DNA of 64,000 bases from Isurus oxyrinchus (taxonomy: Eukaryota). Shown one piece after another: positions 5,190 to 60,723 of this stretch (its first letter is position 1; every line of letters begins with the position of its first letter). Position numbers and translations under genes: made by a program. The notes under the pieces were generated by a model. It worked only from the letters and a program-made list of their open reading frames with translations. It searched no databases and was not told the DNA's origin. The stretch covers positions 4,650,001-4,714,000 of the forward strand of contig JANJGN010000041.1 in the NCBI GenBank assembly GCA_026770705.1, given 5' to 3'.

Positions 5190-6086
5190 CTAACCCTAAT
5201 CGCGATTATGATCCTCAAGCGCAAGAGGTGTGGTCTCGCCGATTGTGTTACCCATTACCTGGTTGCCATTGGCAGTGTCTGATCTACTTGTCATTATCCT
5301 TGACCTGACTTTGAGGCATATTCCAATTGTGTTAGATAAGTATTTTGTTTTCACGAAATCAATCCCCATGTTTAATATCCATGCCATCCTGCTTTATGCA
5401 GCCAATGACTGTTCTGTCTGGTTCACTGTTGCTTTCACCTTTGAGCGATTTGTGGGTATTTATTGCCTAAAGCTGAAAAGCAAATATTGCAGCGAAAAAA
5501 AACGGCAGCTCTGGTTTTTGGCACCGTGAATGTGCTGAGCTGTTCAAAGAACATTTTCTGCTGTTTTATGCTCACAGGTTAGTGTTGGCTCATAAACTTC
5601 CTCCGGTTTTGTGGTTACACAAAGGAAGTTCTGTTGTCACGGTTCAGGGTAAGAATCTACTTCACCCATCACATGCAAATACCGCGTGTCGCATTTGTGT
5701 GGATTGTGCTGCTCAATATTTTGACAGGAAGGTACATTTTACTGGCCAGCAGCGGACACCTGAGGCTCCATGCTCGCAAAAATTGGAAATCTCCCGGGGA
5801 ACAAGATATGGAGAGTCAAAATAAATCGATCATTTTACTGATCTAAACCAATTTCATACTGTTATGGGCAACGTAAATCGTTTATTCTATATGGACGCGG
5901 CTGTATGAATTTGGGGACAATTCTCTGTACCTGCCTAATATGGTTCTGGAATTGTGTTTCATGCTGCAGCTCCTGAGTAACTGCACAAAGACTGGGATTT
6001 ACACTGTGACCCAGCTGAAATTCACGGAACATATGTGGAGTATGGTAAACTATCCCTTTAATCACATTATTCAATTAGATCAATGA
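5190..6086 (+). pseudogene. Exon 2 of GPR139/GPR142-like pseudogene A
   Basis: Motifs RCGLADCVTHYLVA, SDLLVIILD, ANDCSVWFTVAFTFERFVGIYCLKLKSKYCSEK, DMESQNKSIILL and LQLLSNCTKTGIYTVTQLKF. Acceptor AG lost (ttgcac at 5185-5190); several frameshifts and stops. Confidence 0.9.
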
Positions 6087-12289: not shown

Positions 12290-12860
12290 AAAATGACATT
12301 TTGTGTCCCAATTAATAACGGAATTCCATGTAACATCTAAATTACGACGTGTAAAAAACATTTTAAAACTGATATATCTTTAAATACTCCTTAGGTGAAT
12401 TGTTTTAAAATATTCTATAACTGACATTTCTTAAATGATGTGCAACTCAATTTTTTGAAAGACAACGTGAGTGATGTTTCTGAAACAATTCATGAATGGC
12501 AATTTCCAAAACATGAGCTTTTGCTGACTATTTTTTCCAAAGACTTATTTTTGAAAAGAAACGCATAATTGGCTTCTTGAAAAATTAAGTAACTGATATT
12601 TTCGTAACAGACTTTAAATGGCGTTTCCAGAAATGCCACATTACTTTTTTACAAATAAACTATAACTCGATTTTTGGAAAACAATCCATTACTATTTCTT
12701 AAACAATCTAAAATTGATATTTTTTGGAAATAATATGACCTCCTTGAAGCATTAAACAGCGCATATTTCTGAAGCATTCGGTGACTGACATTCTCTAACT
12801 GACATTTCTGAAAGATTGTAAACCTGACCTTTGTTCAAACACCCGGAAACTGTCACAATT
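12290..12860. repeat. Degenerate AT-rich tandem repeat (~28-bp period, core aactgacatttctgaaa)
   Basis: Recurrent variants: aaactgatatatcttta, taactgacatttctta, taactgatattttcg, taactgacatttctgaaa, aacctgacctttg. Confidence 0.55.
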
Positions 12861-12861
12861 T

Positions 12862-40899: not shown

Positions 40900-41990
40900 C
40901 TGCATGTTCCCTCATCTCCCTCTCTCTCTCTCTCTGTTTGGCTCTCTGTGTGTGACGCTGTCCTTTTCTCTCCCTATCCCCTTCTTGCTCAGAGTCTCTT
41001 CCTCTCTACTACCTCTCCCTGTCACTCTCTCGATCTGCATCTCCCTCTCTGCGCTCTCTCCCTCTTCCTTCACTCACTCTCCAGCTCTCATTTTTTCGAT
41101 GATTCTCTTTTCCTCTGTCTCGCTCCTTTCGTGTTCCACCATTTATTTTATTCTTCTTGCTTCATCTTATTCCCCATCTTGCTTTCACGCTGTATCTCAG
41201 TCTCTCTCTTCACTTATAATTCACTTAGCCAGGATAGGTATATATTTCTAATTTTAGCACTTTTTCTTTTTGATGCATATTTGCCTCTTAAACGGAACTG
41301 CGCTGTCAAGAGTCGCTATGCTCCCTGGCAGCGTTCAGCAAGGTCCGCGGAATGAGTTGCCCCTGAATATGAAGCAGCTTTTCACACTGCCCCTGATGGG
41401 TAAAACACAAACTGCAAATACTATCATGTACCATCATTTTAATGTGGTAATTATATTCAATTCTATGAGCGGAATAAATATACACTGATAAGTATACGTA
41501 CTCAAATCTGTGACAATTTTAACGAGGCTATGAAAGTTTTATCATTCAAGGGACGTGAGTGACGCTGATTCGGCCATTACATTTTATTCTGCATCTCTAT
41601 TTAACCTTGAGAACCTGTTGGTCAACTGCCTTCCGGAACACTGCAGTACAACAGCCGTGAAGTTTAGGAATTTGCCGTCATGGGCCTGTAAAACGTCCGT
41701 GGTGGAATTTCCTGGCTCTGTTTTCAGCAACAGAAACAGTTTTCTTCATCGGGCCACTTTCTCTGTAAATAGGCCCAAAGAGTTTTTCACAATTATATGA
41801 GTTCACGCAGAGATACAGCCCCCTCCACACTTCTAGCCCCTATGTAAACTCTCATCCTCCACCAAACCGCAAAGAATCCAGTTTTCTCCCCCACACTGGT
41901 GCCTCTTGTCTTACCGAAATTGTTCCCCATTTCTTTTCCAACCCGCAGTGCTATTTATTTCCGCTTCCCAGAGCCTCGATCACACTAATC
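40900..41990 (+). repeat. ~1-kb dispersed repeat copy 2 (inverted paralog of 13900-14880)
   Basis: Same ordered motifs as copy 1: a CT-rich 5' part, then a conserved core containing ctgaatatgaagca. Confidence 0.8.
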
Positions 41991-42230: not shown

Positions 42231-42580
42231 TGTAACACAGATCTGACCAGTTTAGGCAGTTGCCATTCTGTCTGATTTTATTGAACAAGGTGTGAGGATC
42301 TGGAATTAATGAACCAGCCCAGGATAGGATCCAGCTGCTCAAGGCCCGTGTGTGTGGACATTACTTGGACCGCCCACTCCTGTGTCTCCTAATTTCGCTC
42401 ATTCCAATCGGTAAACACCGCAGGCTGGGGCCGTGCTAACTTTGACCAATGGGCGACAGGAGGCTCAGGTACAGGTCACGATCGTTTATTCGAGCAATTG
42501 CTAGGAGAGGACCATCTCAAGGCATCATGAGATAGCACGTGGACCAACTGCAAGCATGCAGCATAATTTACATATTACTG
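42231..42580 (-). mobile_element. Putative 3' LTR of the env-bearing element
   Basis: On the minus strand it starts TGTAA (42572; alternative start ~42579) and ends GTTACA (42231). It has two CCAAT boxes, a GGGCGG box and AATAAA (42277-42282) about 45 bp before the end, and lies downstream of the env relic in the same orientation. Confidence 0.6.
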
Positions 42581-43039
42581 ATCCTGTGAAAAAAAAATTC
42601 AAATCCAATGCTTGTCAGAATATATGTTATATCATGCATGCTCTTTCACCCCGTCAGAGACCTCTCCCCCTATCCTGGCTGGGACCATCTGTCCTTTCCT
42701 AATCGTTTGAAAAGAGCATTTGGTATATGTTGTTGTCATCCTCTGTTTCCAAAAAAGGCTCCCAAAGCCTTTCTGTTGTTTGCAGGCTCTAAAGCTGTGC
42801 AAGGTTCATCTGGTAACTTTAACTGTTAATGTGCTTGATAGTACTGGCTGCATGGTGATTTTGAGGAATTCATTCCCTTTCAATTCATTTTCGCTGCATT
42901 TCCCCTAATAATCCCTGCTTTCGGATCTGCACCTCGCCCAGGTTTTCCAAAATCACTTGTACTGTCCGTCCCTTTATGTACCGCAACCCATTGATACTGG
43001 CCTGACATCCACCTTTGCATGTAAAACGGCACTGGTCAG

Positions 43040-44385
43040 ATCGGCTGTATCATCTGGCCCTTCACCTGAGGCCACGGAATTGCTAAACCTCTTCTCCACC
43101 TGTTTATACTCCCCAGCTCCTCTTTTGTAACACTTTAGTCATGATGAATCACGTATGTTAAATATATAACTGGAATCAGCTGAGACAGAAGCAGGGCATG
43201 GGAAATAATCCGAATCCACAGGTGCATTTACACATTGGAGTCCCAATTCTACCGTCAACACGAGGAGGAATCTATCTGCTCAATAAACTCTTTTGAGGAT
43301 CTAAACTGATGCTGCAGTTTACAGTAAGTTCTGTAGAACTGCTGAGCTTGTCTCCGAATCGGTGTTGGTGCTGTGCTATTTATTGGAATTTTATACGAGA
43401 ACTGATTCAAATACCGTGTCTGGTTACGGTTAAGGCTTTGCATGACCTGAGAAGGAGTCGTTACTCGCTTGTATATTTCGATCAATTGTACCTTTCCCAC
43501 GCTTGCTGGCTCCTGCAGGTATTGGTACGCCAATTCATTTTGTATGGGGCACATCCTCGTGCTCCCATACTGGATCATTTGCTGCCACATGGTGATACAA
43601 TATCTCCTTTTCCACATGTATGCAACATGGATCGATTCTTTTGCATCCCATATAGTTTCAACTGTACAATTTTCAGTTGCTTTAAATCCACAATTTGCTT
43701 CCTCCATCTCAAATATGTATGTGTGCATAATAAAGCAGTGCTCTCGATATCACACTCTTGTAATGTTGTGCTAACTATATTAGCTTCTATGTCTACTGTC
43801 TATGGCAGAATGTCATGGTATCTAACATAACAGATTCCCCACATCACTCCAATATTTTCTGCTCAGTAAAACCTTCTGCCTGGTGTTGACTTAGATATAA
43901 CAGGCATTGTCTTATTGATATAAGACAATGCCTGTTAGCACATTATTATTGACCAAACATTCAACATTCATTCTATAAACACGTGTTAGACCTCTGAGCT
44001 GGCAACCTGTCAAGTCATGATCTTTATTTCGTGAAAGATTAAATATATGTTCATTAGTTACGCATAAAGTAACTACCTCTTCATTAATCTGTTTTAAATT
44101 CTCTCGGGCTTGTTCCAGTGTCCAGGGTCCATAGGTGCTGCAGACAATGTTCTGCGTGCTTCACCTGAACTATGTTTTCCTATCCAGATCAGTTTATTGA
44201 TATTCCCCGCATTCCCCTTCCAGCATCGTAGCTAGGCTATGAATTAACTGTATCATGACATGACCTGTATTAAACTGGGTGTTTTGAATTCACTGTCCCC
44301 ATTTAAAATTTCCATAAGCATGGAGGTCAAAGACTGGTCATTCTGGTCGACAGTTTACAGGTCAGTAGAGTTAACCCTGATTCTT
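43040..44385 (-). mobile_element. Decayed envelope gene of an endogenous LTR element, paramyxo/pneumovirus-F-like (lokiretrovirus-type) class I fusogen
   Basis: Joined frames: VNSTDL*TVDQNDQSLTSMLMEIL..IQLIHSLATMLE..VCSTYGPWTLEQARENLKQINEE..GCQLRGLTRVY..LTGIVL/TMPVI..Y*AENIGV..VRYHDILP..LQECDIESTALLC..NCGFKATENCTVE..VAY..RYCIT..CPIQN..QAQQFYRTYCKLQHQFRSSKEFIEQI, then a Trp-derived stop cluster and hydrophobic LWIRIISHALLLSQLIPVIYLTYVI. Confidence 0.65.
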
Positions 44386-44389
44386 TTGC

Positions 44390-45960
44390 AATGAAGCATT
44401 CTGAAATTTCTCCCCATTTAAATAAAAAGTCGCCTTTTTATTCTTCCGAAGAAAATGTATAACCTCACAATTATCCATGTTAAACAATATCTAGCAAATT
44501 TTCTCCCATTCTCCTAACCTGTACATATCCATTTATAAATATTTATATCTTAATTACAACTTACTTTCACACCTATGTTGGTTTCAGCTGCAATTTTGGA
44601 TACAGTGCCTTCTATCCCTGAATCCAAGTCATTCATAAAGATTGTAAAAAATTTTCCCCAATGACCGAACCCTGTGGAAACACATTATTTACAGCTTAAA
44701 AAAAAACAGAATTACCTGGAAAAACTCAGCAGGTCTGGCAGCATCGGCGGAGAAGAAAAGAGTTGACGTTTCGAGTCTTCATGACCCTTCGACAGAATTC
44801 TGTCGAAGGGTCATGAAGACTCGAAACGTCAACTCTTTTCTTCTCCGCCGATGCTGCCAGACCTGCTGAGTTTTTCCAGGTAATTCTGTTTTTGTTTTGG
44901 ATTTCCAGCATCCGCAGTTTTGTTTTGTCTTTATTTACAGCTTGTCATCCAAAAAAGACTCATTTATCCAGACCCTGTGCTTTCTGTTAGTTAGCCAATC
45001 CTCCATCAAAGCTAACATATTACCCATCACTCCGTGTGATCTTACCTTGTGTATTAATCTTTTGTGCGGCTCCTTATCAAAGAGCTTCTGGAAGTCCAGA
45101 AATACAACATCCACAGGATCTCCATTATCCACTTTGTTTGTCACATCTTCACAAATTACCCAAACATGGTTTATTCTTCATAAAACAATGCTGACTCTGC
45201 TGGATTGTATTTTCACTTTACAAATGCCCCATTAGTAATTCCTCAATAATGGATTGCAAGAATTTCTCAAAGACTGACTTTAAACTGGTCCACAGTGTTC
45301 TACTTTCTGCCTGCCCCAAACTTTCTCAATAAGGAAGTCGTATTAGTATTATTCAAATCCACTGTAACTTTTTCCGGAATCCAGGGAATTTTGGAATATA
45401 ATTACAACTGCATCCACTACCTACGCTGCCACATCGTTTAGGACCCTTGGATGTAGGACAACCGGCCATGCAGACTTCTCACATTTTGATCGAAATAGGT
45501 TGCTCAGTACCTTTTCTCTAGTTTTGGTAATTTTTCTCACTGTGCTCTACATGTTACGATTAGGGTGGCACTAGTTTCCTCCACCGTCAAAATTGAGGCA
45601 AAATATTTAGGCAAAAAATAAAGTCGCATTTCTGTGTTCACCACTGTTAACTCCCCAGTCCTGCACTCCATGGGACCAACATTCAATTGAACTACTCTAT
45701 GTCCTTTTATATACTTGTAGAAGCATTTGATATCAGTTTTTACATTTAATGATATTTTTCCTTTGGTCTTTATGATTTTTAGTAACCCTATCTTCATCTT
45801 TATATTGTTCCCAATCTTCCAGCTTGTCACTGACCTTTGCCATTTGGTATGCCTTAGTTTTGGATTTTCTGTCACCTTTAACTTCATTGTTTAGCCATAG
45901 ATGATTTTTCCCCCTCTTACCATCTTTCTTCTTCATTGGAAAGATTGTTTTCTTTAGTTT
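44390..45960 (-). mobile_element. CR1 LINE ORF2 (RT) fragment truncating the env relic
   Basis: TNKVDNGDPVDVVFLDFQKLFDKEPHKRLIHKVRSHGVMGNMLALMEDWLTNRKHRVWINESF and NVKTDIKCFYKYIK..NVGPM. Confidence 0.9.
44698..44930. mobile_element. Penelope pLTR-derived palindromic insertion (two perfect 96-bp arms, 44702-44893) with 13-bp TSD
   Basis: Centre GACAGAA|TTCTGTC at 44797/44798, arms exactly complementary. TTATTTACAGCTT occurs at 44685-44697 and 44931-44943. Confidence 0.92.
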
Positions 45961-46504
45961 TGCGATTGTAATGCGGCATTGTTGATAATGGTATTTGGAG
46001 ACATTTATGTGACTGAATGTGTTGTCCAAGTCGATTATCAGTTTGCACATTTAATGCAGCAAAGAGCTGAGGGTTTTAAGCCAGGTCGAGGGAAAATGTA
46101 CCCTTGGCTCCAGGTCTGGCCAATCAGTTTTGACTTATTTTTCCAGTTTTTCTGCTCTTCCCGGTAAATTAGTGATGCTTTTGTTCCTGTTGCGAGGAAA
46201 GTGTTATCTTTCAAATTGTATTATTTGTTCCCCGAAGCAAATGGCAGCGAGCGAGTTCCTGGACGTCATATCTGACCCGATGTTAAGGGGATTTGCAAGT
46301 GAAATTTCCAAGTTTATTCGTCTGAAATACATGTGTACGTAAATTCAATGCGTTTCTATGTTTGTTTTTAATTCACAATGACATCTTTCTGCTTCACAGT
46401 GGCCTTTATCAATGATCCAACAGCAGATAGTTGTTGCAAGATGCACTTTTATTACAGCCCTTCATGTTCAAATCTTTCTATCTATCCATCCAGCCATTAT
46501 GTAA

Positions 46505-46798
46505 CTAAAACTTAAACATAAATACCTGGAAAAATTCTGCAAATCAGAGAGCATCAGTGGAGAGGAAGACAATTAAAGTTTCGAGTCCGTATGACAGTGA
46601 TCACTGGCCTTAGATCCAGCTGTACCTGGCCCAAACCCCTCACTTAGAACACCTTATATTTCACCTCCTTTCTATTTTTCCATAGTTCTGTTAAAGGGTG
46701 AATGAGCTCGCAACGTTAACTGTCTTTCTCTCTGCAGATGCTCTCAGACCTGCTGAGATTCTCCAGATATTTTTGCTTTTCTTTTGTATGTCCAGCAT
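46505..46798 (+). mobile_element. Older Penelope 3' end with inverted pLTR copy at its 5' side
   Basis: 46505-46597 resembles the reverse pLTR (cctggaaaaattctgc..gtttcgagtccgtatgac). 46598-46798 is the forward 3' end (agttctgttaaagggtg..cgcaacgttaactg..cagacctgctgag) and runs into the gap. Confidence 0.75.
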
Positions 46799-47347
46799 NN
46801 NNNNNNNNNNNNNNNNNNNNNNNNNNNNNNNNNNNNNNNNNNNNNNNNNNNNNNNNNNNNNNNNNNNNNNNNNNNNNNNNNNNNNNNNNNNNNNNNNNNN
46901 NNNNNNNNNNNNNNNNNNNNNNNNNNNNNNNNNNNNNNNNNNNNNNNNNNNNNNNNNNNNNNNNNNNNNNNNNNNNNNNNNNNNNNNNNNNNNNNNNNNN
47001 NNNNNNNNNNNNNNNNNNNNNNNNNNNNNNNNNNNNNNNNNNNNNNNNNNNNNNNNNNNNNNNNNNNNNNNNNNNNNNNNNNNNNNNNNNNNNNNNNNNN
47101 NNNNNNNNNNNNNNNNNNNNNNNNNNNNNNNNNNNNNNNNNNNNNNNNNNNNNNNNNNNNNNNNNNNNNNNNNNNNNNNNNNNNNNNNNNNNNNNNNNNN
47201 NNNNNNNNNNNNNNNNNNNNNNNNNNNNNNNNNNNNNNNNNNNNNNNNNNNNNNNNNNNNNNNNNNNNNNNNNNNNNNNNNNNNNNNNNNNNNNNNNNNN
47301 NNNNNNNNNNNNNNNNNNNNNNNNNNNNNNNNNNNNNNNNNNNNNNN
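46799..47347. other. Assembly gap (549 N)
   Basis: Run of n; ORFs spanning it are artefacts. Confidence 1.
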
Positions 47348-58700: not shown

Positions 58701-59818
58701 TTCACTAAAAATGTTCCTGCATTTTGAAGAAAAAAGAAATATGCATTTTATAGCCGATCAATGATTGGAAACTCTGCCCTGTCTACTTGAAAGCAAAAAG
58801 CCAGTTATGACCTCACCAGAATCAAATCTTCGAATTGCTCATTAATATTGCTCTGCAAGCAATGTGCCCTTATGGCCAAAAAATCATGCCAACTCCATCT
58901 GATAACAATGTCACCGTTCCCATTCTGGCATTAAAGTGCCCTCTTGATCACGATGGGCTGCACCCATTCTGCATAGCAACTTTGCTTCGTTCTTTCTGCA
59001 AGGAATTAGCGATGCATTCACATGAAATTCTCCTCAGCATTGCCCAGCCAGCATATCAATCACACACATGATTGAGCAGCTCTCTGGAATAAAACGTCTC
59101 ACTGGGAACCTGCATAATACTGTCACTCTGTACTGATTTTCATTGTACAGCCACTATGACAACTCCTGTGTCAACTTGCATCAGGCCTTTCCGAATGCTG
59201 GTCTTTTATTGAGCTCAGTGACTATTCTTTGGCCCTGTGTGTTTACCTTTTCATCTTTACCCACACAAGCGTTCAGATTATGTTCGTGTCCCTGGGCAAT
59301 ATTTTACCCTCAAGCTCTAAGTCCTGTTGCACAGTCGTCCTTCCCACTACGTATCACAACTATAGGTCACCAGCACGCATTGCACCAGTACCTCTTCCAC
59401 AGTATAATTCCACATGGCCCAATTTCTATTTTGTGCATTTATTTCCCACTTCACATCGTAACAACACACATGGATTGGCTCTTTATACCTTTCATTTACC
59501 TTTTAATATTCAACATACCCAGCCGTTTGTATGCTTTCAAATTGTCCAATTCAAATTTGCTTTCAGCAAACTCAATCATAATTGCAGAATAGTTGTCCAG
59601 TTTACTTTGACATTCGTTTCAAAAGCAGAATTATGAACTGACGTTTCTCTTCCCTATCCATTTTCACTGGGTTCCGTTTACATTTAGAACATGGTCACGT
59701 CAAAAAGCAGGTTGTGCATATTTGGGTCAAATGGACGATCCTTTGCTGCAACAGGAAGAAGATTAATTATATTCATCTGTGTCATCAACCTCATGCTCTC
59801 TCTATCTCTCTCTTACAG

Positions 59819-60723
59819 TTAATGTTGTTGCCATTGTGATTCTTTCAGGAGGAATGTGTGGCCTCTCCAAATGTATTACCCATTATATGATCGCCATGGC
59901 TACGGCGGATCTCCTGGTTGTTTGTGCTCAAGTCATGTTGAACAATAAGCTGTATATGTATTTACCTGCTTCATTCTTGACCATGAGCACGGTCTGCCCT
60001 CTAACTGTGACATTGACTTATGCAGTCATATCAGCTTCTGTCTGGTTAACAGTGGGGTTCACCTTTGATCGTTTTGTGGCCATATGTTGTAAGAAGCTGC
60101 GAAAAAAATATTGCACGGAGACAACAGCAGTAGCTGTCATATCAGTGGTGAGTGTGTTGAGTTGTTTGATGAACATTCCCTGGTACTTTGCGTATGAACC
60201 TGCATATACAATGGACAATGTAAATCGTGGTTGTGTCCTAAAACTGACATTTTTCATTTCTGATGAATGGGCCGCATTTGCCTTGCTTAACATTGCCTTG
60301 ACCCCATGTGTTCCATTTATTCTAATTTTGTTGCTAAATTTTTGGACGGCAAGATGTATTTTGGCAGCCAGTAAAGTTCGCAGGGGTCTCCGCGGTTGCA
60401 ACAATGGAGAACATCACAAGGATACTGAAATAGAAAACCGAAGAAAGTCCATTGTTTTACTCTTCAGTATAACCGGTAGCTTTATATTGCTCTGGACAGC
60501 TCCAATTATATATATTATTTCTCTGCATGTAACAATCACATCGATTTCTGGGACAAACGAGATTGAGACAGTTAGTTTCATGCTTGGATTCCTCAGTTGC
60601 TGCACAAATACATTCATTTATGTGCTGACACAGGCTAAGTTTAGGGAGGAGCTGAAGAGAGGAATACAGTATCTTGTGAAACTGTGCGTTAAAATAGGCA
60701 AATTACAGCTGAAAACCCATTGA
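59819..60723 (+). CDS. Exon 2 of the intact GPR139/GPR142-like GPCR (spliced product 324 aa, 7TM)
   Basis: Polypyrimidine acceptor ctctctcttacag|59819 is phase-compatible with exon 1 (70+905=975 bp, open). Motifs: GVPVN (TM1), AMATADLL (TM2), FTFDRF (TM3), NIPWYF (TM4), PCVPF (TM5), FILLW (TM6), SCCTNTFIY (TM7), KFREEL (helix 8). Confidence 0.92.

What the first reader, a model, noticed from the sequence alone, without database searches (positions are those of the whole stretch)
42231..44385. Endogenous LTR element with a Mononegavirales-F-like envelope (lokiretrovirus-like) in a shark-type genome
Seen: not evident from the ORF track, but joining minus-strand frames gives ~430 codons in class I fusogen order. 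The order is post-fusion-peptide heptad (VNSTDL..QSLTSMLMEIL), helical region (CSTYGPWTLEQARENLKQI), LTGIVLTMPVI..Y..ENIGV, a Cys-rich block (QEC..LLC..NCG...NCT..YCIT..CPI), a second heptad, a Trp-derived membrane-proximal region, a TM helix and a short tail. A 3' UTR and a TGTAA...TTACA LTR with CCAAT/GC boxes and AATAAA follow. It lacks the CX6CC/immunosuppressive motif of gamma-type env. Known: lokiretrovirus Env resembles paramyxo/pneumovirus F; from memory they were reported in lampreys, bony fishes, amphibians and reptiles, and I cannot confirm a cartilaginous-fish report. Inference: this may extend that lineage's host range or represent a separate F-gene capture.
Basis: partly seen in the sequence, partly recalled or inferred. 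Interest (0 to 1): 0.75.

Follow-up and report, generated by a model that had tools for sequence, protein, structure and literature searches.

The report
Dead shark retroviral F-type envelope remnant
This is a broken piece of an envelope gene, likely the tail end of a long-dead endogenous retrovirus; its intact shark relatives are predicted to fold like measles-type fusion proteins, it is likely not a lokiretrovirus, and one relative is so well conserved across sharks that it is likely a tamed host gene.

Summary
The env remnant is real. Three minus-strand pieces (44172-43153) match, in order, a family of shark proteins. An intact relative's low-confidence model matches paramyxo/pneumovirus F and foamy Env: 11 of 11 chains at Z>=5. 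The copy is dead: 3 frameshifts, 9 internal stops, nothing upstream of the fusion peptide, and no gag or pol in the window.

The LTR is only plausible. TGTAA...TTACA pairs are common here (54 in 64 kb), there is no adjacent polypurine tract, and no second copy.

Lokiretrovirus membership is untestable without RT and is disfavoured: Env motifs differ by eye, and the published screen found 0 of 6 chondrichthyan genomes positive. A snakehead-retrovirus-related or other clade III carrier is likeliest but not shown here. The scan has already noted F-like shark ERV envelopes in other genomes.

By-catch: one full-length relative is 85-88% identical, without gaps, in Chiloscyllium, Scyliorhinus and Heterodontus, a candidate domesticated F-type env.

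The parts
44262..44375 (-). Putative start of the first heptad, just after the missing fusion peptide; 1 stop (44357)
   Evidence: Position-consistent in 3 of 5 relatives, not significant against shuffles
43921..44271 (-). env piece 1: heptad and helical region with CxxYG motif; stops at 44196, 44172, 44163
   Evidence: Profile hit 44172-43921, iE 3e-15; tblastn to P0003, P0008, P0012, P0015
43719..43907 (-). env piece 2 (other frame): beta region with ENIGV and start of the Cys cluster; stops at 43865, 43802
   Evidence: 34% to P0003 over 64 aa, E 3e-12; profile iE 4e-11
43135..43716 (-). env piece 3: Cys-rich block, second heptad, membrane-proximal region (stops at 43257, 43251, 43230), TM segment about 43221-43165, stop at 43137
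   Evidence: Profile iE 1.5e-35; hydropathy peak; alignments A1 and A5
42573..43134 (-). Probable 3' untranslated region, with purine run at 42671-42661 (alternative PPT candidate)
   Evidence: Sequence; diverged look-alike contigs in laid runs; function inferred
42231..42572 (-). Possible 3' LTR (TGTAA...TTACA, GC box, AATAAA 46 nt before the end); boundaries uncertain
   Evidence: Motifs present, but such end pairs are common and no partner copy is in the window
44376..46050 (-). Decayed CR1-like LINE ORF2 fragment abutting the env remnant; not part of the element; appears to lack its own 3' end
   Evidence: Weak RVT_1 hit, E 0.04; the CR1 label rests on recalled motifs
44698..44897 (.). 200-nt near-perfect palindrome: two head-to-head copies of a very high-copy short repeat inside the LINE fragment; not part of the element

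Best explanation
The stretch is a broken remnant of an envelope gene whose intact shark relatives are predicted to have the paramyxovirus-F-type (class Ib) fold, and it is likely the inert 3' end (env plus a possible LTR) of an old endogenous retrovirus that is likely not a lokiretrovirus. SHOWN: three ordered homologous pieces with 3 frameshifts and 9 internal stops; relatives in sharks with an RxxR/RxKR site before a fusion-peptide-like segment, a Cys-rich core, two heptads and a TM segment; no gamma-type motifs. PREDICTED from a relative's model: the F fold. INFERRED, working protein: it would have been cleaved by furin, inserted its fusion peptide and zipped the two heptads into a six-helix bundle, with the extra N-terminal ~180-residue region of full-length relatives likely binding the receptor. 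INFERRED, history: after integration the 5' part (5' LTR, gag, pol, front of env) was lost, likely by a deletion that also removed the 3' end of the neighbouring LINE. Diverged copies exist in this and a related species. The locus most likely does nothing today. The carrier is most likely a clade III retrovirus (snakehead-retrovirus-related or spuma-related); this last step is not shown here.
For: phmmer over 1.84e9 proteins gave 11 hits at E<=1e-3, best 1e-24. 8 of the 11 carry a name and all 8 are shark proteins; 3 are unnamed. Ordered profile hits and an independent match of the middle frame. For the P0007 ectodomain model, VIA-align found 11 of 48,161 chains at Z>=5: 10 paramyxo/pneumovirus F and 1 foamy Env; best Z 8.4 (rmsd 6.1, 182 aligned), first unrelated row Z 4.6. 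Foldseek on PDB: 70 matches at E<=1e-3, and all 33 rows shown are F or foamy Env. ESM Atlas features for P0015: 15 of 30 hits Baculo_F (0.94), 9 of 30 Fusion_gly (0.93). Furin-type sites in P0007, P0008, P0011, P0012, P0016, P0017. In run X1, 8-99 contigs differ at six listed positions in env/UTR/LTR, against 1-3 at the 11 listed positions in the downstream flank; ~83% look-alike env pieces occur in two species labels. Most chondrichthyan ERV RTs are clade III (2843 vs 2018 clade I; PMC11089739). An earlier scan note (unchecked) placed a shark provirus with F-like Env near the SnRV clade.
Against: The folds are of a relative that is about 24% identical to the window, not of the window's own protein. 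Both models are poor (pLDDT 39.7 and 44.9) and the Foldseek TM-scores to the query are <=0.31. The Atlas recognition score (1641) is below the tool's 2300 mark, so that hit is weak. Direct searches with the window protein found nothing in the word index (0 of 460), PDB sequences or Pfam. No RT is linked to any member of this env family in my calls. The one published SnRV-like chimaera ERV carries a gamma-type env by my reading of its sequence (PMC4422223 supplement), so an SnRV-like RT does not imply an F-like Env. Eight other listed positions inside the element show only 1-4 contigs, and flanks also have 83-86% look-alikes, so some copies may be segmental duplicates rather than separate insertions. 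The LTR is unproven.
Confidence: 0.55

Rival explanations
1. It is a lokiretrovirus remnant, extending that lineage to cartilaginous fishes.
For: F-like Env. By eye it shares with Loki Env a G-x-I/V-P motif, a Y-x-L/V..N-V/I-G motif and a four-cysteine cluster. The published negative screen used a lamprey RT query on 6 draft genomes and could not see env-only relics.
Against: 0 of 6 chondrichthyan genomes positive. By eye, the Loki Env proteins shown have about 4 cysteines after cleavage, an Ala/Gly-rich fusion peptide, almost no N-terminal extension and no Trp-rich membrane-proximal stretch; the shark family has about 10 cysteines, a different fusion peptide and a ~180-residue extension. Loki-Str Env hits PF00523 at 2.2e-7; none of the shark-family proteins did. 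No named bony-fish protein was among the 11 hits.
Confidence: 0.12
2. The carrier is a Ty3/Gypsy errantivirus-like LTR retrotransposon with F-type env.
For: The top Atlas set is Baculo_F, mostly arthropod envelope proteins. There is one Baculo_F hit below cut-off (P0005, E 1.1e-3). F-type env is widespread in invertebrate Gypsy elements, including tunicates.
Against: That preprint found no intact vertebrate elements homologous to the invertebrate ones. No invertebrate protein was among the named hits.
Confidence: 0.12
3. The carrier is an epsilon-like retrovirus with a walleye-virus-type Env.
For: WDSV and WEHV-1 Env are among the Foldseek hits (E 2e-5 and 1e-5; 5e-4 and 2e-3). They lack gamma-type hallmarks (PMC9967133). 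Clade I RTs are common in chondrichthyans.
Against: Those hits are no better than paramyxovirus or baculovirus F. The walleye Env proteins are 1159-1317 aa against about 750 here. The epsilon-like chimaera ERV in PMC4422223 has a gamma-type env by eye.
Confidence: 0.1
4. It is a stand-alone insertion of a negative-strand virus F mRNA made by a LINE, or a pseudogene of the conserved shark gene, and never belonged to an LTR element.
For: A LINE fragment abuts it, no gag-pol is in the window, and the LTR is unproven.
Against: Identity to any viral F is only 10-17% in the fold alignments. The relatives form several diverged sub-families in sharks. The window piece is closer to P0003/P0005 (83/83 support, long branch) than to the conserved gene. 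No poly(A) tail is seen at the 3' end.
Confidence: 0.11

Closest known systems
Lokiretrovirus Env (Wang and Han 2020, PMC7947760)
   Same: F-like Env of a vertebrate LTR element; basic cleavage site, fusion peptide, coiled coil, TM segment; shared four-cysteine cluster by eye.
   Different: The shark family has about 10 ectodomain cysteines after cleavage against about 4, a different fusion peptide, a Trp-rich membrane-proximal region, a ~180-residue N-terminal extension and no PF00523 hit. RT is not available here.
Foamy virus Env, class Ib (PMC11468914)
   Same: Same predicted core as F: Z 7.6, rmsd 3.0 over 115 residues to 8rm0_A.
   Different: Foamy Env has its receptor-binding domain inserted between the two subunits. 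In full-length shark relatives the F2-like strand and helix run straight into the cleavage site, and the extra region is N-terminal. The cartilaginous-fish foamy virus paper (PMC9972966) could not be read.
Paramyxo/pneumovirus fusion glycoprotein F0 (PF00523) and baculovirus/errantivirus F (PF12259)
   Same: Predicted fold and domain order.
   Different: 10-17% identity; no Pfam hit at cut-off; extra N-terminal region; genomic setting of a retroelement.
Snakehead retrovirus clade ('Huo', PMC6001957; CmiERV lineage I, PMC4422223)
   Same: Known in chondrichthyans; proposed as carrier of F-like shark Env in an unchecked scan note.
   Different: No RT here to test. The published chimaera member has a gamma-type env by my reading.
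percomORF and other co-opted env genes (named in PMC9967133)
   Same: For the relative P0007/P0016/P0017 only: an intact env conserved across host orders.
   Different: Those are gamma-type envelopes; this one is predicted F-type. Synteny and selection were not tested.

Membership tests
Class Ib (F-type) fusion proteins | Structural core shared with paramyxo/pneumovirus F | tested here: met
   For the relative P0007, on a low-confidence model: 11 of 11 chains at Z>=5 are F or foamy Env; 33 of 33 PDB rows shown. Carried over to the window by sequence homology.
Class Ib (F-type) fusion proteins | Basic cleavage site followed by a fusion peptide | tested here: inconclusive
   Present in six relatives; this part is missing from the window copy.
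Class Ib (F-type) fusion proteins | Two heptad regions around a Cys-rich beta core, then a TM segment | tested here: met
   Alignments and model secondary structure; hydropathy.
Lokiretroviruses | RT in the Loki clade, sister to Odin and outside canonical retroviruses | not testable with these tools
   No pol in the window, no genome held, no linked locus found.
Lokiretroviruses | Tether plus RNase H; CGIN1-like integrase | not testable with these tools
   pol absent.
Lokiretroviruses | Env with detectable sequence similarity to PF00523 | tested here: not met
   No PF00523 hit for the 2 window translations or the 16 database proteins. HMMER filters drop weak matches, and similarity is seen by fold and by Atlas features.
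Lokiretroviruses | Env motif pattern of published Loki Env | tested here: inconclusive
   By-eye comparison with 8 of 23 listed Env places: remote shared motifs, different cysteine count, fusion peptide and N-terminus. No computed alignment.
Gamma-type retroviral Env | ISD (QNRxxLD) and CX6CC | tested here: not met
   Absent in 18 of 18 proteins held.
Foamy virus Env | Receptor-binding domain inserted between the subunits | tested here: not met
   In P0007, P0011 and P0012 only about 20-35 residues separate the F2-like helix from the cleavage site.
LTR retroelement / provirus | Paired LTRs with TG...CA ends and target-site duplication | tested here: inconclusive
   One candidate LTR, no partner; end motif common by chance.
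LTR retroelement / provirus | Polypurine tract directly before the 3' LTR | tested here: not met
   For the proposed start at 42572, the nearest purine run ends at 42661; the true LTR start may lie there.
SnRV-related (clade Huo) retroviruses | RT grouping with snakehead retrovirus | not testable with these tools
   No RT; rests on an unchecked scan note and on clade III abundance.

The most novel reading that the evidence does not exclude
Sharks carry their own deep family of retroviral class Ib (F-type) envelopes, distinct from lokiretrovirus and foamy Env and bearing an N-terminal attachment module. This locus is one fossil of it. Another member (P0007/P0016/P0017) was domesticated before horn, carpet and ground sharks split and is kept intact as a host fusion or antiviral gene: an F-type counterpart of syncytins.
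Probability: 0.45. Interest if true: 0.72.

Novelty: new variant of a known kind. Interest (0 to 1): 0.42.

Why it matters
The locus itself is an inert fragment. It matters as evidence that F-type envelopes in vertebrate retroelements are not confined to lokiretroviruses and foamy viruses, which bears on whether class Ib Env is ancestral in retroviruses or was captured several times. Tying this env family to an RT would make that question testable. The conserved full-length relative would, if synteny and selection hold, be a domesticated F-type envelope in sharks. I found none such in print in the ten paper searches run, though the library lacks most subscription papers.

Tried and rejected
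Genome and direct searches. No whole genome is held, so copy number, paired LTRs, target-site duplications and a linked pol stay open. The window protein found nothing in the word-index search (0 of 460), PDB sequences or Pfam. The profile against PDB sequences gave only 7 chance-level hits (best E 0.17).

Looking for a linked pol. A search for longer pol-env fusion records found 0 of 1737. Four viral-contig scans and two metagenome scans found no relative. Pfam on 85 open frames of >=62 aa upstream and 68 of >=85 aa downstream found no gag or pol family at E<=0.01; shorter decayed pieces were not scanned. A motif scan gave only scattered chance matches and no YxDD.

Folds and features. The window's own protein was neither folded nor run through the Atlas, so fold and feature evidence rests on relatives. 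The Atlas hit for P0007 was 0.82, a lead only.

Sequencing runs. No RNA holder was listed. The guessed-RNA run X21 holds only diverged look-alikes over env and UTR, which says nothing on expression of this locus. Depth figures were not used as copy numbers.

Other. The Rfam MIR5048 match on the palindrome is far below gathering score (82 vs 160) and was rejected as a generic hairpin. The prokaryotic promoter scan is irrelevant. A second alignment of the 44376 frame to the CxxYG region (7 of 500 shuffles, one of 15 tests) was treated as chance. PMC9972966 is not held. By-sequence and by-place look-ups of earlier findings were blank, as were two word look-ups.

Full report
OBSERVATION. One frame of 44271-43057 was searched against 1,835,955,588 representative proteins and gave 11 hits at E<=1e-3, best 1e-24. 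Eight carry a name and all eight are shark proteins (Heterodontus, Heptranchias, Chiloscyllium, Pristiophorus, Mustelus); three are unnamed. The middle piece was out of frame in that query, yet it matches the top hit on its own (34% over 64 aa, E 3e-12). A profile of 12 database proteins hits three pieces in order (iE 3e-15, 4e-11, 1.5e-35) and nothing else in the six frames below iE 3.1. That profile was built from hits to the window, so only the order of the pieces and the middle piece are independent checks. The first piece (44375-44262) aligns just after the fusion peptide in 3 of 5 relatives, but not above chance. The copy has 3 frameshifts and 9 internal stops, plus a stop just after the TM segment. 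Neither CX6CC nor QNRxxLD occurs in any of 18 proteins held.

THE LTR. The motifs exist, but CCAAT occurs only reversed, there is no TATA[AT]A, and no purine run adjoins TGTAA; the nearest ends at 42661, so the LTR may start there. TGTAA...TTACA pairs 250-700 nt apart occur 54 times in the window. No partner copy exists in the window. AATAAA 46 nt before the proposed end fits an LTR but does not prove one.

SURROUNDINGS. Upstream lies a decayed LINE fragment (RVT_1 E 0.04; the CR1 label is recalled from motifs) that seems to lack its own 3' end. LINE insertions normally keep that end (general knowledge), so I infer a deletion. No gag or pol family was found in 85 upstream and 68 downstream open frames, and there is a 549-nt gap at 46799-47347. 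The window is a duplicated gene-cluster region (GPCR and SRCR frames). Of 24 runs listed, 20 hold part of the stretch, under two species labels; I laid 4 of them. Species A holds 99% pieces. Species B holds 95-96% pieces over env and the upstream flank, likely the orthologous locus. Both hold ~83% look-alikes. Six listed positions in env, UTR and LTR are crossed by 8-99 differing contigs in X1 and eight by only 1-4, against 1-3 in the downstream flank. This fits an old member of a multi-copy family, but flanks also have 83-86% look-alikes, so segmental duplication contributes. Contigs are not copies.

FOLD. The window's protein was not folded. The full-length relative P0007 (about 24% identical to the window over 203 aa, tblastn E 4e-11) was modelled whole (pLDDT 39.7) and as an ectodomain (pLDDT 44.9). 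Both models are poor. Even so, VIA-align against 48,161 chains gave 11 at Z>=5: ten paramyxo/pneumovirus F and one foamy Env, best Z 8.4 (rmsd 6.1, 182 aligned), first unrelated row 4.6. The tool warns that Z under 8 alone is weak; the point is that the top 12 rows are one family. Foldseek gave 70 PDB matches at E<=1e-3, with all 33 rows shown F or foamy Env, at low TM-scores. It gave 27 and 28 viral matches at E<=1e-3, including paramyxo, pneumo and baculovirus F, other negative-strand virus glycoproteins and walleye retrovirus Env, with foamy Env passing that cut only for the second model. Atlas features for P0015 point to Baculo_F (15 of 30 hits) and Fusion_gly (9 of 30), with a recognition score below the tool's mark. 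Pfam gave only one sub-threshold Baculo_F hit. Six relatives show a furin-type site.

MECHANISM. Shown: a broken gene lacking everything up to the end of the fusion peptide. Predicted: the F-type fold of its relatives. Inferred: the ancestral protein worked as a class Ib fusogen (cleavage, fusion-peptide insertion, six-helix bundle, as for F and foamy Env in PMC11468914), with the N-terminal extension of full-length relatives as attachment module; UniRef names P0007 'Ig-like domain-containing'. The locus is most likely inert.

MEMBERSHIP. Lokiretroviruses are defined by RT phylogeny and pol architecture (PMC7947760), which cannot be tested here. Their screen reported 0 of 6 chondrichthyan genomes, but it used RT. 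By eye, the Loki Env proteins shown (8 of 23 places) share remote motifs and a four-cysteine cluster with the shark family, but differ in cysteine count, fusion peptide, N-terminus and membrane-proximal region. Loki-Str Env hits PF00523; no shark-family protein did. I therefore do not file it as a lokiretrovirus, though it works like one at the Env level. Foamy architecture is not met. For the carrier I favour a clade III retrovirus, from the abundance of clade III RT in chondrichthyans and an unchecked scan note naming the SnRV clade; my reading before that note was 'clade III/spuma-related, 50%'. Against this, both env-bearing chimaera ERVs in PMC4422223, including the SnRV-like one, have gamma-type env by my reading of the supplement. 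A tree of 13 C-terminal pieces puts the window with P0003/P0005 (83/83, long branch), apart from the conserved trio; P0008, P0010, P0012 and P0013 were left out as too short there, aberrant or redundant.

BY-CATCH. P0007, P0016 and P0017 are full length, 85-88% identical and gap-free across three shark orders, one record per species, while other sub-families of the group are only about 21-42% alike. The split of these orders at roughly 200 million years is recalled. Domestication is my reading (about 65%); synteny and selection are untested. Earlier scan notes describe young high-copy shark ERVs with an Ig-like Env head, which is the rival; a by-sequence look-up of P0007 among those notes was blank.

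NOVELTY. F-type envelopes on retroelements are known (Loki, foamy, errantiviruses). I found no paper describing this shark family or a conserved shark F-type env in ten searches. The scan itself has 14 earlier findings holding the words lokiretrovirus, env, fusion, shark and endogenous, 8 of them shown. Two papers could already cover part of this: the cartilaginous-fish foamy virus paper (PMC9972966, seen only as a reference entry, not held) and a vertebrate-wide survey of retroviral gene co-option by Wang and Han (recalled, not seen). Supplements of the two bioRxiv preprints were not seen; the errantivirus preprint defers vertebrate elements to another report.

PAPERS SEEN. PMC7947760: parts 1-3 of 4 and supplement passages. 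PMC4422223: part 1 of 2 and all of supplement 1. PMC11468914: passages and section 10. Passages only: PMC9040795, PMC11089739, PMC10699275, PMC10435555, PMC13709493, PMC9967133, PMC6001957, 10.1101/2023.10.26.564294, 10.1101/2021.11.05.467493. All others: search listings only.

VERDICT. Observation partly confirmed; F-like env supported; LTR unproven; lokiretrovirus label not supported. New variant of a known kind, interest 0.42, most of it owed to the family and to the conserved relative rather than to this dead locus.

Noticed in passing
proteins P0007, P0016, P0017 (not in the window): Full-length F-type Env, 85-88% identical with no gaps over 734-754 aa in Chiloscyllium punctatum, Scyliorhinus torazame and Heterodontus francisci, one record each. 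Candidate domesticated envelope; a horizontally spread virus is the rival.
   Followed up: partly
protein P0005 (Heterodontus fbxo15 isoform X3): A predicted F-box protein isoform whose last ~140 aligned residues are the env membrane-proximal and TM part, 81% identical to P0003: an exonised env or a gene-model artefact.
   Followed up: no
fold hits: Walleye dermal sarcoma and epidermal hyperplasia virus Env and the Wenling thamnaconus filovirus glycoprotein rank among F-type matches, hinting that these too are class Ib.
   Followed up: partly
window 44698-44897: Near-perfect 200-nt palindrome made of two head-to-head copies of a ~105-nt repeat with enormous depth in laid runs; further copies at about 12858-12968, 16257-16363, 46503-46595 and 46686-46798.
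   Followed up: partly
window 59767-60720 (+); 5212-5526 (+); about 15430-15566: Open rhodopsin-family GPCR frame (7tm_1, E 1e-18), a weaker one at 5.2 kb (E 4e-4) and a third look-alike stretch: a tandem GPCR cluster.
   Followed up: no
window 22041-22385 (-) and 22.7-27.8 kb: SRCR domain exon (E 1e-15) beside tandem units of about 2.1 kb that are 63-83% alike.
   Followed up: no
window 17.0-19.6 kb and 20.0-21.5 kb: A 32-nt tandem array and a ~55-nt degenerate array.
   Followed up: no
window 41013-41982 vs 13910-14780: Old inverted duplication (72%) of the flank next to the putative LTR; it stops about 250 nt short of the LTR, so it gives no empty site.
   Followed up: yes
window 44119-44542: In the second species label one contig matches env at 95% up to 44382 and then runs on for ~960 unlike letters, while another contig spans the env/LINE junction at 81%. 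The history of the junction is unresolved.
   Followed up: partly
window 46799-47347: Assembly gap of 549 N upstream of the LINE fragment; lost parts of the element cannot be excluded there.
   Followed up: no
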